This document shows, in pieces, positions 1-3,562 of a stretch of 64,000 nt of DNA. The notes beneath the pieces were generated by a model that was given only the letters and a program-made list of their open reading frames with translations, did no database searches and was not told the DNA's origin. The stretch is from sequence record MK295204, one strand, 5' to 3'. Numbering within the stretch: the stretch's first letter is position 1; each line of letters begins with the position of its first letter. A program made the position numbers and the translations under genes. This stretch comes from Shigella phage vB_SdyM_006.

Positions 1-112
1 TATCAAATTCTTCATTACCTAAACCAGTTAGGCTAATTCCATCGATACTAATATTCCATTGTCCAAAGCATAGCGTTGGATAAGACCCAGTCCACTCTAC
101 AAAAATTTTCAT
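1..112 (-). CDS. hypothetical protein, partial (start codon at 110-112, runs off the window edge)
   Basis: Open minus-strand frame from ATG at 110-112 to position 1 (MKIFVEWTGSYPTLCFGQWNISIDG...); not in the ORF track because it is truncated. Confidence 0.35.
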   Translation of the reverse strand, partial: MKIFVEWTGSYPTLCFGQWNISIDGISLTGLGNEEFD

Positions 113-230
113 GTAATTCCTTATAAACATACCACAATTGCAGTTAAAAATATAAAAACCATAACAGGAACATACCAAATGGTTTTTATAGCATCATTAG
201 GTTTTTCTGAGTCAAACATGATAATCTCGA

Positions 231-584
231 TTAATAATAAATAGTATTCCCAACATAAATTTTGTTTGGATTTGTAATATTATTTAAAATTTGTAAATAT
301 TCAACAGACACGCCAAGGTTCATAGCAATTTCGCTCAGTGTGTCATTAAATCGTACTGTATATGAAAATAAATTTGAATCACGATTAATTGACGCAGTTA
401 AAAAATCAACAGAATTCAGAACTTCAAAAGTCATCGCTTTGTCGTTGCCACTATTAAAGCCAATACCACGCTTAAGAATAGAAACGATAGTTGTACCTTC
501 ACCTGTTTCAGAAGCACCGATGATGTTACGTGTATCAACCATAAAACGTGATAAATCATCTGCAGAAGTTAAAATAATTTTCAT
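231..584 (-). CDS. LysM-domain protein (putative peptidoglycan-binding)
   Basis: C-terminal ~45 aa fit the LysM pattern (YTVRFNDTLSEIAMNLGVSVEYLQILNNITNPNKIYVGNTIY); no signal peptide. Confidence 0.6.
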   Translation of the reverse strand: MKIILTSADDLSRFMVDTRNIIGASETGEGTTIVSILKRGIGFNSGNDKAMTFEVLNSVDFLTASINRDSNLFSYTVRFNDTLSEIAMNLGVSVEYLQILNNITNPNKIYVGNTIYY

Positions 585-593
585 AGTATTTCC

Positions 594-986
594 TTACCAA
601 GAATAAGCAAAACCTGCACCAAGAGTAGAATTAGATTTGTTATCAAATGCACCAGACATTTTTAATGTTACATTTGTGTTTTCTGGATGAGCACCAAAAG
701 CGACAGCTACAGCTGAACCAGATTTATAACCACCAACACCTAAGCCTAAAGAAATGGTTTTAGAAAAATCTAATGGAACATTATTCATAGCAGAAGCAGA
801 AGCAAATCCAGCTTTTACTTGGTCCATTTTTCCGTCAACATCTTTAATATATCTATTCCAGGATTCATTTACAGTTCCTTCGTGAAAAGTATGATTAAGA
901 TTTGGACTAATCCAATTATTATCTGATGCAATTGAACCAGAACTCAAAACTAATAATGAAGCCATAAAAATAAATTTTAAATTCAT
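594..986 (-). CDS. secreted protein with YadA-like (trimeric autotransporter) C-terminal membrane-anchor domain
   Basis: N-terminal signal peptide (MNLKFIFMASLLVLSSGSIA); C-terminal alternating beta-strand pattern ending ...GAGFAYSW, like TAA anchors that end in Y-x-W. Confidence 0.5.
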   Translation of the reverse strand: MNLKFIFMASLLVLSSGSIASDNNWISPNLNHTFHEGTVNESWNRYIKDVDGKMDQVKAGFASASAMNNVPLDFSKTISLGLGVGGYKSGSAVAVAFGAHPENTNVTLKMSGAFDNKSNSTLGAGFAYSW

Positions 987-1127
987 AATTTTTTCCTTGT
1001 TTGTTTAAAGTAGAAACACTATATCATAGATTATATAAAAGCTAAATTTCTTTTATTTTAAAAACAAAAAAGGTCCAACATTTCTGTGGACCTTAAAAGC
1101 AACTTCTTTTATTATTTATTTTAAATT

Positions 1128-1203
1128 TGGTACACCTACGGGAATTCGAATCCCGGTTACACGCTCGAAAGGCGTGGGTCCTAGACCACTAGACGATAGG
1201 TGC
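1128..1203 (-). tRNA. tRNA-Glu (anticodon UUC)
   Basis: Manual cloverleaf on reverse complement: 7-bp acceptor stem, T-loop TTCGAAT, anticodon loop CTTTCGA, 3' CCA encoded. Confidence 0.8.
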
Positions 1204-1210
1204 ATTAAAA

Positions 1211-1302
1211 TGGAGGAGAGTATGGGATTCGAACCCATGGAACAGCGTAACTGTCCAACGGTTTTCAAGACCGTCTCAATAATCCATCTCTGACAACTCT
1301 CC
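1211..1302 (-). tRNA. tRNA-Ser (anticodon UGA), type II with long variable arm
   Basis: Acceptor GGAGAGT/ACTCTCC, anticodon loop CTTGAAA, long variable arm, T-loop TTCGAAT, CCA encoded. Confidence 0.8.
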
Positions 1303-1726: not shown

Positions 1727-1919
1727 TTAAAAATGTACCCATCCGGCTTTCCAGTCTGGTGAAGGGTTGTCACCTCTAGTTTAAACCTGCTAGTCAAGTA
1801 ATAATTGCATATCGTCCAATTATCAAAACCGTCTAGGTTATATTACACCACTTCCTAGAATACCGTCTAAGCGGACTTGATCGACGTAGATTACACCATA
1901 TACGTCTGATTGTGGAATT

Positions 1920-1994
1920 TGGAGCGATCTACGGGTATCGAACCCGTATCTTCTGGGTGGAAACCAGAAATAATAGCCATTATACTAAGATCGC
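1920..1994 (-). tRNA. tRNA-Gly (anticodon UCC)
   Basis: Perfect acceptor stem GCGATCT/AGATCGC, anticodon loop TTTCCAC, T-loop TTCGATA, CCA encoded. Confidence 0.85.
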
Positions 1995-2615
1995 ATATTT
2001 ATTAATAAATCTTCTTGCTTGGGTATGACTTAATCCTATATGTTTAGCAAATTTATTTAAGTTACCTCTTATTGAAATATCAAATGATTTTAATATTTCT
2101 AATCTATAATTAATTTCGTCTTTTGACAATGTAGAGGCATTATTAATAGAAATTTTGTTTTTAGATATATCCGAATGTCTCTTATTTTTAAAACCAAACG
2201 AATTTTTCTTTTTGCTAAAATCATATAATCCGAGTCTAAGTCTTTTCTTAAATGTATTAACTTGTTTACTTATAGTTAATTTAGATTTTGGCAATGAATT
2301 TATATAATCCCAACCACCTTCACCACCAACTTTTAAATTATATGTATTTTTGCTTTTAACAAATTTTTCTGTAACTATTTTGGCTTCATGTATAAACATG
2401 TCATACTTATTTTTATGAAATTTTAAAATAGTTTTTTCAAAATTTTCTTTGCCATATTTTTCTATGGCTTTTTTCAAAATCTTACCTGAACCAAAATATC
2501 CATCTTCTAAATCTTTGGTTTTATGAACACCTATATAAATTTTATTATTTATTTTATTTTTAATTTTGTATGTATAATAAAACATTATAGCCTTATTTAT
2601 CTTTTGGTACTCCAT
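1980..2615 (-). CDS. GIY-YIG homing endonuclease (Seg-like) embedded in the tRNA cluster
   Basis: N-terminal GIY-YIG motif (FYYTYKIKNKINNKIYIGV...GSG), basic C-terminal region; T4 segB sits in the equivalent tRNA region; 3' end overlaps tRNA-Gly by 15 nt. Confidence 0.6.
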   Translation of the reverse strand: MEYQKINKAIMFYYTYKIKNKINNKIYIGVHKTKDLEDGYFGSGKILKKAIEKYGKENFEKTILKFHKNKYDMFIHEAKIVTEKFVKSKNTYNLKVGGEGGWDYINSLPKSKLTISKQVNTFKKRLRLGLYDFSKKKNSFGFKNKRHSDISKNKISINNASTLSKDEINYRLEILKSFDISIRGNLNKFAKHIGLSHTQARRFINKYAILV

Positions 2616-3478: not shown

Positions 3479-3562
3479 TGGCGGGCAGTGTAGGATTCGA
3501 ACCTACGTCGTCAAATGACACGGATTAACAGTCCGCTGCTTAATCCACTCAGCCAACTACCC
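3479..3562 (-). tRNA. tRNA with GUU (Asn) anticodon but type-II architecture (13-nt variable arm)
   Basis: Acceptor GGGTAGT/ACTGCCC, discriminator G, 3-bp D-stem, anticodon stem GCGGA/TCCGT with loop CTGTTAA, variable-arm hairpin GTCATTTGAC, CCA encoded. Confidence 0.6.

What the first reader, a model, noticed from the sequence alone, without database searches (positions are those of the whole stretch)
231..584. LysM-domain protein adjacent to the YadA-like gene
A C-terminal LysM (peptidoglycan-binding) module is fused to an N-terminal ~70 aa of unknown function with no signal peptide. Together with the neighbouring secreted outer-membrane protein this forms a small envelope-directed module at the edge of the tRNA/hyperplastic region. 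Signal-less phage LysM proteins are often virion- or lysis-associated.
Basis: partly seen in the sequence, partly recalled or inferred. Interest (0 to 1): 0.45.

Follow-up and report, generated by a model that had tools for sequence, protein, structure and literature searches.

The report
Signal-less LysM protein of Proteus phage
A small, conserved gene in a T4-like Proteus phage really does encode a cell-wall-binding (LysM) module fused to an orphan domain, but it is an ordinary uncharacterised accessory protein whose link to the neighbouring outer-membrane gene is loose rather than functional.

Summary
The ORF is real. Window 231-584 (minus strand) encodes a 117-aa protein. Residues 75-115 match Pfam LysM (E=1.2e-10). 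The N-terminal 72 aa are an orphan domain, and there is no signal peptide. The window is a T4-like Proteus phage (Bragavirus, ~98% identical to phiP4-3).

The family (PHROG 20780, function unknown) was found only in T4-like phages of Proteus, Providencia and Morganella. In 11 of the 12 loci read it lies at the 3' edge of the tRNA cluster; in PSTCR6 it is two genes further on. In the Bragavirus loci a terminator and a MotA-type middle-promoter motif precede it. dN/dS is about 0.2.

The YadA-anchor gene is a mobile cassette. It sits upstream in three LysM loci and downstream in one. It is absent from the other eight and occurs without LysM in phage Mm5. The steadier partner is a 116-aa PM0253-family gene. 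A relative with ~99%-identical flanks lacks the cassette and carries a replaced LysM module.

Published virion proteomics of phage MP1 did not list the orthologue.

Most likely this is a non-virion adaptor made in the cytoplasm. It would reach peptidoglycan only after membrane permeabilisation. Its function is untested. Interest is modest.

The parts
231..584 (-). CDS of the 117-aa LysM protein (PHROG 20780 family), stop codon included
   Evidence: ORF list. Pfam LysM E=1.2e-10. PHROG 20780 E=3e-61. Orthologues at 66-98% in Bragavirus and about 36% in Gualtarvirus. dN/dS about 0.2.
369..584 (-). N-terminal orphan domain (residues 1-72): five beta-strands plus a C-terminal helix
234..365 (-). 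C-terminal LysM domain (residues 74-117; Pfam match 75-115 = nt 240-362), ending at the protein's C-terminus
   Evidence: Pfam. PDB profile hits are only to LysM chains. The model shows a beta-alpha-alpha-beta arrangement: E74-76, H83-90, H94-101, E114-116. D81, I86, L90, V92, L97 and N101 are invariant; T82, L83, I103 and I109 are nearly invariant. In L013 the segment 225-381 is replaced by a different LysM.
589..595 (-). Ribosome-binding site AAGGAAA of the LysM gene, overlapping the stop codon of the upstream gene (tight translational packing)
   Evidence: Read directly from the minus-strand sequence. The same AAGGA-N-ATG leader precedes LysM in relatives that lack the YadA cassette.
594..986 (-). 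YadA-anchor mini-autotransporter gene (130 aa: hydrophobic N-terminal leader residues 1-20, anchor residues 76-130). A variable cassette, not a fixed partner
   Evidence: Pfam YadA_anchor E=2e-12. PHROG 8062. Hydrophobic N-terminus. Variable presence and position. Clean absence of 981-596 in L013.
121..219 (-). 32-aa ORF with a hydrophobic C-terminal stretch (probable tail-anchored membrane protein) directly after the LysM gene; found at 72-100% identity in all seven Bragavirus-type loci
   Evidence: ORF list. tblastn across loci. Sequences.
1..112 (-). 5' part (37 codons) of the 116-aa PM0253-family gene (PF27390 / PHROG 20678). It is cut by the window edge. It is the most consistently linked neighbour of the LysM gene
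   Evidence: tblastn 100% identity over 37 aa. PHROG 20678. PF27390 label. Same phage set plus PSTCR6.
1060..1094 (-). Intrinsic-terminator-like hairpin (8-bp stem AAGGTCCA/TGGACCTT followed by TTTTGTTTTT) after tRNA-Glu
   Evidence: Read from the sequence. Identical in all seven Bragavirus-type loci. The scan tool missed it because the loop is 9 nt. A terminator at the analogous position is annotated in MP1.
1018..1046 (-). T4 middle-promoter-like motif: degenerate MotA box TTTAGCTTTTA (1046-1036), 12-nt spacer, -10 TATAGT (1023-1018)
   Evidence: Sequence. Relatives carry the consensus form TTGCTTTA, then 12-13 nt, then TAAGAT or TAATAT, in front of whichever gene comes first, YadA-like or LysM. 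Function is inferred from the published T4 consensus and was not tested.
1128..1203 (-). tRNA-Glu, the last gene of the tRNA cluster, marking the boundary that the unit abuts
   Evidence: ARAGORN. Rfam tRNA.

Best explanation
Window 231-584 (minus strand) encodes a genuine, selectively maintained accessory protein. The family was found only in T4-like phages that infect Proteus, Providencia and Morganella.

Shown here:
- The protein has two modules. The first is a phage-specific 72-aa beta-barrel-plus-helix domain with a PH/PTB/Sso7d-like shape, which is a binding-scaffold fold rather than an enzyme fold. The second is a canonical C-terminal LysM.
- There is no export signal.
- The gene is the first or second cistron of a small unit: [YadA-like cassette] - LysM - 32-aa hydrophobic-tailed ORF - PM0253-family protein.
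- That unit starts behind a conserved terminator and a MotA-type middle-promoter motif at the 3' end of the tRNA cluster.
- The orthologue in phage MP1 was not detected in virion preparations.

Inferred:
- The protein is made in the cytoplasm before late gene expression.
- Like signal-less endolysins, it meets the murein sacculus only once the inner membrane is breached by the holin.
- Its LysM then anchors it non-covalently to GlcNAc in the glycan strands.
- The N-terminal domain holds a partner protein or peptide, or drives oligomerisation for multivalent binding. On this reading it is a non-enzymatic peptidoglycan tether acting in the lysis phase.

A 31%-identical LysM module replaces the original in a relative whose flanks are about 99% identical. 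This argues that the generic glycan-binding function of LysM is what is kept, rather than a bespoke protein interface.

The descriptive part is about 0.9 likely. The lysis-phase tether mechanism is about 0.35 likely; the confidence value given refers to the mechanism.
For: - LysM HMM match above the curated threshold, with the canonical residues conserved.
- Predicted beta-alpha-alpha-beta fold. pTM is 0.49 for the whole protein and 0.66 for the N-domain alone, which fits flexibly linked modules.
- No signal peptide, and the N-terminus is a structural strand.
- Purifying selection on both domains.
- LysM-module replacement at the domain boundary. In L013 the N-terminal part is 96% identical in nucleotides, segment 381-225 shows no nucleotide similarity, and the flanks are 99% identical.
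- Conserved terminator and middle-promoter-like motif in front of the unit.
- The MP1 orthologue gp122 is absent from a permissive 58-protein virion mass-spectrometry list that includes nearby gene products.
- The endolysin of these phages is a small M15 peptidase with no wall-binding domain of its own (PMC10487532). Signal-less access to the wall through the holin is therefore already the route used for their lysis enzyme. That last step rests on established knowledge of the T4-type holin-endolysin pathway.
Against: - No experiment addresses localisation, timing or binding.
- Middle-mode expression is inferred from a motif only, and the window's MotA box is degenerate (AGCTTTT in place of TGCTTT).
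- An early or middle gene product is more typical of host take-over than of lysis.
- A single LysM binds weakly unless it is multimerised.
- The mass-spectrometry negative comes from an orthologue with about 36% identity and could be a detection miss.
- The family shows no specific co-occurrence with M15 endolysins. RB49 and KP15 have such endolysins, and no LysM homologue was found outside phages of Proteus, Providencia and Morganella.
Confidence: 0.35

Rival explanations
1. Cytoplasmic host-take-over factor. The protein acts inside the cell early or mid infection. Its LysM would bind a non-murein ligand, such as lipid II, a UDP-sugar or imported GlcNAc-anhydroMurNAc peptides. Alternatively the LysM would serve as a protein-contact module, as in the cytoplasmic K+ sensor Kbp. 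The N-terminal domain would dock onto a host or phage partner, for example the PM0253-family protein.
For: - No signal peptide.
- Middle-promoter-like context in a region of early and middle accessory genes.
- Acidic protein with pI 4.7.
- Stable linkage to a cysteine-rich, apparently cytoplasmic neighbour with a conserved C-terminal CGGC.
- There is precedent for a cytoplasmic LysM protein: the LysM of Kbp (PDB 7pvc) is a weak hit.
Against: - LysM domains need several GlcNAc units for useful affinity, and no such polymer exists in the cytoplasm (established knowledge, not tested here).
- The LysM module was replaced by one only 31% identical in a near-identical background. That is hard to reconcile with a co-evolved protein interface.
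- The N-terminal domain is not a BON domain.
Confidence: 0.25
2. Envelope module. The LysM protein would be exported by a non-classical route. In the periplasm it would work with the YadA-like outer-membrane trimer and the 32-aa membrane protein. The role might be superinfection exclusion or shielding peptidoglycan from the tail lysozymes of incoming phages.
For: - In this phage three consecutive genes look envelope-directed: an outer-membrane anchor, a peptidoglycan binder and an ORF with a hydrophobic tail. They are tightly packed and probably co-transcribed.
- The YadA-like gene lies next to LysM in four phages, in two different orders.
- Expression before late genes would suit an exclusion function.
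Against: - There is no Sec or Tat signal, and the N-terminus is part of the fold.
- The YadA cassette is absent from 8 of 12 LysM loci and occurs alone in Mm5.
- The 32-aa ORF is absent from Gualtarvirus, where a soluble 63-aa protein takes its place.
- Indel boundaries at RBS repeats indicate cassette shuffling rather than a co-adapted operon.
Confidence: 0.1
3. Virion component. A LysM protein carried in the baseplate or tail (like P2 gpX) or in the head would help wall penetration at infection.
For: Signal-less LysM proteins occur in contractile-tail baseplates (recalled knowledge of P2 gpX and Pfam Phage_tail_X). In T4 the internal-protein genes ipI, ipII and ipIII lie within a few kb of the tRNA region.
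Against: - The MP1 orthologue is not among the 58 proteins found by virion mass spectrometry, although several proteins of 10-17 kDa and many contaminants were seen.
- No Pfam Phage_tail_X hit.
- No T4-type capsid-targeting N-terminus (MKTYQEFIAE in ipII and ipIII; MKIILTSADD here).
- The gene is not in a structural cluster and has no late-promoter TATAAATA upstream.
Confidence: 0.05
4. Functionless passenger. The gene would be a shuffled fragment carried along in the hyperplastic region with no role for the phage.
For: Narrow distribution, mosaic neighbourhood, and no known function.
Against: - dN/dS is about 0.2 in both domains.
- Length and architecture are retained across two genera at 36% identity.
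- After the module replacement a LysM is still present.
- A good ribosome-binding site and a conserved leader are present.
Confidence: 0.05

Closest known systems
LysM cell-wall-binding modules of endolysins and autolysins (e.g. B. subtilis LytE, PDB 8i2e; Bacillus phage lysins; PHROG 291/7348/1274)
   Same: The C-terminal 44 aa are a canonical LysM. The profile matches LytE at E=1e-18, and Bacillus phage lysin LysM repeats share 57-61% identity over about 45 aa. As with canonical endolysins, there is no export signal.
   Different: There is no catalytic domain. Only one LysM copy is present. The partner domain is an orphan 72-aa beta-barrel. The host is Gram-negative.
E. coli Kbp/YgaU (BON + LysM cytoplasmic K+-binding protein, PDB 7pvc)
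   Same: A small two-domain protein of roughly 120-150 aa without a signal peptide and with a C-terminal LysM. Only the LysM part gives a weak hit: E=0.011 in the PDB and E=0.012 to NCBIfam PRK11198.
   Different: The N-terminal domain is not BON. There is no PF04972 hit, and the fold is five strands plus a helix rather than an alpha/beta BON fold.
P2 gpX-type tail/baseplate LysM proteins (Pfam Phage_tail_X)
   Same: A signal-less LysM protein encoded by a contractile-tailed phage of a Gram-negative host.
   Different: No Phage_tail_X hit. The LysM is C-terminal. The gene lies in the tRNA/hyperplastic region behind a middle-promoter-like motif. The orthologue was not found in virions.
T4 e.8-e.2 ORFs (first genes after the T4 tRNA/rnaC cluster)
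   Same: Same map position: the first protein-coding genes downstream of the tRNA cluster, on the way to nudE and the endolysin gene. All are uncharacterised accessory genes.
   Different: No sequence similarity to any T4 protein of that region. The best HMMER E-value in a 16-protein search was 0.13.
Fungal LysM effectors (e.g. Ecp6, PDB 4b8v)
   Same: Non-enzymatic LysM proteins whose job is binding or sequestering GlcNAc glycans. The profile hit is E=3e-14.
   Different: They are secreted, carry three LysM copies, and are eukaryotic. The analogy is in mode of action only.

Membership tests
LysM domain (Pfam PF01476) | HMM score above the curated gathering threshold | tested here: met
   41.6 bits against 20.9, E=1.2e-10, residues 75-115.
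LysM domain (Pfam PF01476) | beta-alpha-alpha-beta fold | tested here: met
   The AlphaFold2 model has E74-76, H83-90, H94-101 and E114-116, with pLDDT 84-91 in this part. This is a prediction, not a solved structure.
LysM domain (Pfam PF01476) | Conserved signature residues (xDTLxxIA ... LxxxN ... I) | tested here: met
   D81, I86, L90, V92, L97 and N101 are invariant; T82, L83, I103 and I109 are nearly invariant across 12 family members. The domain aligns to LytE and Ecp6 LysM repeats.
LysM domain (Pfam PF01476) | Non-covalent binding to GlcNAc-containing glycans (peptidoglycan, chitin) | not testable with these tools
   Needs a sacculus pull-down or calorimetry with chito-oligosaccharides.
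Endolysin / peptidoglycan hydrolase with a LysM wall-binding domain | A catalytic domain (glycosidase, amidase or peptidase) | tested here: not met
Kbp/YgaU (BON-LysM) | N-terminal BON domain | tested here: not met
   No BON hit in Pfam. The fold is five strands plus a helix. The 7pvc and PRK11198 matches cover only the LysM part.
Phage tail protein X (P2 gpX-like) / virion LysM proteins | Phage_tail_X HMM match, tail-cluster location, presence in virions | tested here: not met
   No such Pfam hit. The gene abuts the tRNA cluster. The MP1 orthologue gp122 is absent from the virion mass-spectrometry list. That last point is indirect evidence from an orthologue.
SafA/ExsA spore-coat assembly protein (the annotation carried by the Rgz1 and MP1 orthologues) | TIGR02899 score above cut-off; sporulating Gram-positive context | tested here: not met
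   19.1 bits against a cut-off of 67.85. The label merely reflects the shared LysM.
Sec/Tat-exported envelope protein | N-terminal signal peptide or lipobox | tested here: not met
   Acidic residues at positions 9-10. The maximum 12-residue hydropathy in the first 30 aa is 0.62, against 2.38 for the YadA-like neighbour. Residues 2-7 are a structural strand. No dedicated signal-peptide predictor was available.
FlbD/SwrD 'flagellar and swarming motility protein' (PF06289) | HMM match to PF06289 | tested here: not met
   No Pfam hit at E<=10 for any of 10 N-domains. There is only fold-level resemblance (TM 0.6-0.7) to small phage proteins carrying that label in BFVD.
PHROG 20780 (phage orthologous group, unknown function) | Full-length HMM match | tested here: met
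   E=3.2e-61, residues 1-117 of 117.

The most novel reading that the evidence does not exclude
A phage 'intracellular LysM effector'. The protein would be made before late genes and kept in the cytoplasm. It would capture GlcNAc-containing wall precursors or imported turnover muropeptides, such as lipid II or GlcNAc-anhydroMurNAc peptides. Through its PH/PTB-like N-domain it would hand them to, or block them from, a partner such as the co-inherited PM0253-family cysteine-rich protein. This would rewire wall synthesis or wall-damage signalling in Proteus, Providencia and Morganella.

That host group is recalled, from the literature and not tested here, to have unusually O-acetylated peptidoglycan. 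The swappable LysM module would then tune ligand preference to the host. A related variant is that the protein serves in trans as the missing wall-binding module for these phages' M15 endolysin.
Probability: 0.08. Interest if true: 0.65.

Novelty: new member of a known kind. Interest (0 to 1): 0.25.

Why it matters
If the tether reading is right, this would be a free-standing, non-enzymatic wall-binding adaptor in a phage of Gram-negative hosts. In such phages, endolysins usually lack binding domains altogether. The clean exchange of the LysM module between near-identical phages would then be a small natural experiment in domain swapping, of possible use for engineering lysins against Proteus and its relatives.

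Practically, the result corrects two misleading labels: 'spore coat assembly protein' in the Rgz1 and MP1 records, and the idea of a fixed LysM/YadA envelope module. Otherwise it is one more uncharacterised accessory gene of a T4-like hyperplastic region, with a narrow host-linked distribution.

Tried and rejected
- **Kbp-like BON+LysM architecture.** Rejected: no BON hit, and the fold is all-beta plus a helix.
- **Distant homologues of the N-domain.** An exhaustive HMMER profile search of 1.84 billion representatives gave four hits. Two represent the family itself. One is a 59-aa stand-alone relative on a 1-kb contig with no informative context. One is a beta-propeller repeat protein, which I judged spurious because the match rests on eight repeated stretches.
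- **Weak NCBIfam GerW/YtfJ hit** (18 bits against a cut-off of 116). Dismissed.
- **Homology to T4 genes at the same map position** (e.2-e.8, trna.2-4, internal proteins). None found.
- **Paralogues of either domain elsewhere in the 64-kb window.** None found.
- **Defence or anti-defence labels (PADLOC).** Nothing.
- **Donor of the replaced LysM module in L013.** No closer relative was found among phage records than the family itself, at 37%.
- **PM0253-family neighbour.** No solved structure and no useful literature. The local Pfam copy lacks PF27390.
- **Literature on phage LysM proteins in T4-like phages, phiP4-3 or Pm5461.** Nothing specific to this protein.
- **AFDB50 fold search.** The library was unavailable.
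- **Generic promoter/terminator scan.** It did not exceed shuffles for promoters, and it missed the conserved hairpin because of its 9-nt loop. The hairpin and the promoter motif were read by eye and supported by cross-phage conservation.

Full report
**Identity of the window and of the ORF.** The first 3 kb of the window are about 98% identical to Proteus phage phiP4-3 (Straboviridae, Bragavirus). They are 79-85% identical to phages PM2, Pm5461 and SJ_PmiM. ORF 231..584 on the minus strand encodes 117 aa. Pfam LysM matches residues 75-115 at E=1.2e-10, with 41.6 bits against a cut-off of 20.9. The full length matches PHROG 20780, 'unknown function', at E=3e-61. A profile of 12 family members finds only LysM-containing chains in the PDB, such as LytE at 1e-18 and Ecp6 at 3e-14. 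Nothing in the PDB matches the first 70 residues.

**No export signal.** The protein starts MKIILTSADDLSRF. The best 12-residue hydropathy mean in the first 30 residues is 0.62, compared with 2.38 for the neighbouring secreted protein. In both AlphaFold2 models residues 2-7 form the first strand of a sheet, with pLDDT 87-92. All homologues begin with MKI(I/L)L. A ribosome-binding site AAGGAAA lies at 595-589, so the start codon is secure.

**Structure.** The full-length model has pLDDT 83 and pTM 0.49. The N-domain folded alone has pLDDT 83 and pTM 0.66. The N-domain is built from strands 2-7, 13-17, 21-26, 32-38 and 49-55, followed by a helix at 59-71. The LysM part is beta-alpha-alpha-beta and ends at the C-terminus. 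The lower pTM of the whole protein fits two flexibly linked modules.

**Distribution.** Two word-indexed searches of 5.8 billion proteins returned eleven full-length relatives, plus one 204-aa protein matching only through its LysM repeats. All the relatives come from Bragavirus or Gualtarvirus phages or from metagenomic contigs of the same kind. An exhaustive profile search for the N-domain in 1.84 billion representatives added only a 59-aa stand-alone relative and a spurious repeat protein. tblastn against 50,697 phage records finds full-length homologues only in phages of Proteus, Providencia and Morganella. Providencia phage PSTCR6 has a more divergent 106-aa member with a LysM hit. No protein in the T4 tRNA-to-endolysin region is related. 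No paralogue exists in the window.

**Selection and mosaicism.** Against four Bragavirus orthologues dN/dS is about 0.17-0.2, and both domains are constrained. A metagenomic relative (L013) is 99.1% and 99.6% identical in the flanks and 95.8% identical across the N-domain. It differs in two discrete ways:
- It lacks window 981-596, which is the YadA-like gene.
- Window 381-225, the LysM module from about residue 69 to just past the stop codon, has no detectable nucleotide similarity. It encodes a different LysM that is 31% identical in amino acids (dS 1.6, against 0.15 in the N-domain).

No donor for that module was found. Replacing one LysM with another preserves the architecture. This suggests that the generic property of LysM is what selection keeps.

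**Neighbourhood.** In 11 of the 12 LysM-bearing loci read, the gene is the first CDS after the last tRNA, or is separated from it only by the YadA-like gene. PSTCR6 is the exception. There the PM0253-family gene comes first and the LysM gene lies two genes further on.

The YadA-anchor gene (Pfam E=2e-12, hydrophobic N-terminal leader, C-terminal ...GAGFAYSW) varies in position:
- It is upstream of LysM in the window, phiP4-3 and PM2.
- It is immediately downstream in Pm5461, at 44% identity.
- It is absent from SJ_PmiM, L013, L014, all four Gualtarvirus phages and PSTCR6.
- It is present inside the tRNA cluster of Morganella phage vB_Mm5, where no LysM homologue was detected.

The cassette is bounded by imperfect repeats of the RBS-ATG leader. 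More distant homologues are the C-termini of 'adhesin/tail' proteins of phiEco32-like phages. It is therefore a shuffled cassette and not an obligate partner.

A 32-aa ORF with a hydrophobic C-terminal tail follows the LysM gene in all seven Bragavirus-type loci. A soluble 63-aa protein takes its place in Gualtarvirus. The most stable neighbour is a 116-aa protein of PHROG 20678 / PF27390 'PM0253', which has a conserved C-terminal WRHSSCGGCI. It occurs in the same phages and also in PSTCR6. Its first 37 codons occupy window 112-2.

**Expression signals.** After tRNA-Glu (1128-1203) there is an 8-bp GC-containing hairpin followed by TTTTGTTTTT, at 1094-1060. It is identical in all seven Bragavirus-type loci. 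Next come a motif that in PM2, Pm5461, SJ_PmiM and L014 reads TTGCTTTA, a spacer of 12-13 nt, and then TAAGAT or TAATAT. This matches the T4 middle-promoter consensus as I recall it from the published T4 literature: a MotA box (a/t)(a/t)TGCTTtA, about 12 nt, then TAnnnT. In the window the box is degenerate (TTTAGCTTTTA, 12 nt, TATAGT; 1046-1018). The same leader precedes whichever gene is first, YadA-like or LysM. No late-promoter TATAAATA is present. MP1 has annotated terminators on both sides of its LysM-gp121-gp120 unit. Middle-mode timing is an inference.

**Virion proteomics.** The MP1 paper (PMC5384007) lists 58 proteins from gel-based ESI-MS/MS of virion preparations. The list includes non-structural contaminants and products of nearby genes (gp113, gp117, gp119). 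The numbering agrees with the GenBank locus tags by size and by homologue. gp120, gp121 and gp122, the LysM orthologue, are absent. This is indirect evidence and a negative result, but it lowers the virion hypothesis.

**Mechanism.** What is shown is an expressed-looking, constrained, signal-less protein with two modules: a canonical LysM and a non-enzymatic binding-type domain. It belongs to a small unit at the tRNA boundary and is not seen in virions. What is inferred is how it works. A Gram-negative cytoplasm holds no polymeric LysM ligand. The phage's own lysis enzyme is a small M15 peptidase without a binding domain (PMC10487532), and it also lacks a signal, relying on membrane permeabilisation. 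The most economical reading is therefore that the protein reaches murein by the same route. It would then act as a non-covalent tether or adaptor in the lysis phase.

I put this at about 0.35. A purely cytoplasmic take-over role is at about 0.25. The envelope-module idea is at about 0.1. A virion role and a functionless passenger are each at about 0.05. The remaining 0.2 or so is unassigned.

**Comparison and novelty.** The protein is a member of the LysM superfamily by every test available here. It is not an endolysin, a Kbp-type protein, a gpX-type tail protein or a SafA-type protein; each fails a defining feature (see the membership table). The family is already catalogued: PHROG 20780, UniRef 'LysM domain-containing protein', and the mislabel 'spore coat assembly protein' in Rgz1 and MP1. 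It is best filed as a new, uncharacterised member of a known kind. The module swap and the host-group restriction are the only mildly unusual aspects.

**Seen in passing.** A non-coding element of about 193 nt lies at 1727-1919, between tRNA-Gly and tRNA-Asp.
- It has no Rfam match and carries stop codons in all six frames.
- It is 82-90% identical to copies in T4-like, T5-like and jumbo phages, with a partial 78.5% match in Aeromonas phage avDM6.
- In every locus read where tRNA genes were annotated nearby, the copy sits among them and in their orientation.
- A consensus fold has some compensatory pairs.

It may be more novel than the finding itself.

Noticed in passing
window 1727-1919 (minus strand), between tRNA-Gly 1920-1994 and tRNA-Asp 1651-1726: A non-coding element of about 193 nt with stop codons in all six frames and no Rfam match at E<=0.1. 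It is 82-90% identical (partial 78.5% match in Aeromonas avDM6) in 50 phage records from unrelated groups: Bragavirus, Morganella Mm5, T5-like Proteus phage 1/2, and the jumbo Asteriusvirus and Alcyoneusvirus phages (121Q, PBECO4, RaK2, K64-1). Wherever tRNA genes were annotated near a copy, it lay among them in the same orientation, and it is mostly unannotated. It is absent from phiP4-3. RNAalifold predicts 50 pairs, 6 of them with compensatory changes. One hairpin covaries by eye: GGUGA..UCACC, GGUAA..UUACC, GGUUA..UAACC. The single-sequence fold z-score is only -1.7. It may be an undescribed stable RNA processed out of the tRNA precursor, as T4 rnaC and rnaD are, though blastn finds no similarity to them.
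   Followed up: partly
window 225-381 versus locus L013 5204-5354 (ENA metagenome contig ERZ27259936 k141_1755): In a background that is 96-99% identical, only the LysM-encoding segment of the gene is replaced. The replacement LysM is 31% identical in amino acids and shows no detectable nucleotide similarity. The breakpoints fall at the domain boundary and just past the stop codon. No donor was found among phage records.
   Followed up: yes
window 594-986 (minus strand), and loci L002, L003, L009: A 130-aa mini trimeric-autotransporter-like gene: hydrophobic leader, a passenger of about 55 aa, and a YadA anchor. It behaves as a mobile cassette in the tRNA regions of phages infecting Proteus and Morganella. 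It is found before LysM, after LysM, or alone next to the 193-nt element in vB_Mm5. It is flanked by repeats of the RBS-ATG leader. Distant relatives are the C-termini of 'adhesin/tail' proteins of phiEco32-like phages. Its role in a lytic phage is unknown.
   Followed up: partly
window 1980-2615 (minus strand): A 211-aa GIY-YIG homing-endonuclease ORF. Its sequence from the internal Met at residue 11 (MFYYTYKIKNKINNKIYIGVH...) is nearly identical to the N-terminus of T4 SegB, and Pfam SegE_GIY-YIG matches at E=8e-6. It sits in the tRNA cluster where phiP4-3 has tRNA-Pro and a small ORF, and the window has no tRNA-Pro. Its 3' end overlaps tRNA-Gly by about 15 nt. PSTCR6 also has a homing endonuclease in its tRNA cluster.
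   Followed up: partly
window 1-112 (minus strand; gene continues beyond the window), and L001 4473-4823: A 116-aa protein of PHROG 20678 / Pfam PF27390 'PM0253' with a conserved PTLCFG near the N-terminus and an invariant C-terminal W(R/K)H.SCGGCI. This may be a metal-binding or redox motif. It is the most stable neighbour of the LysM gene across Bragavirus, Gualtarvirus and PSTCR6. There is no solved structure, no function and no useful literature.
   Followed up: partly
window 121-219 (minus strand): A 32-aa ORF (MFDSEKPNDAIKTIWYVPVMVFIFLTAIVVCL) with a hydrophobic C-terminal tail. It is 72-100% identical in all seven Bragavirus-type loci, but phiP4-3 and Pm5461 do not annotate it.
   Followed up: partly
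window 1214-1266 and 3482-3528 (plus strand): Sub-threshold Rfam hits to the 'Plastid-psbl-rps4' 3'UTR family, at 40 and 30 bits against a gathering score of 68. They lie antisense to tRNA-Ser and tRNA-Asn and are almost certainly artefacts of tRNA antisense similarity.
   Followed up: no
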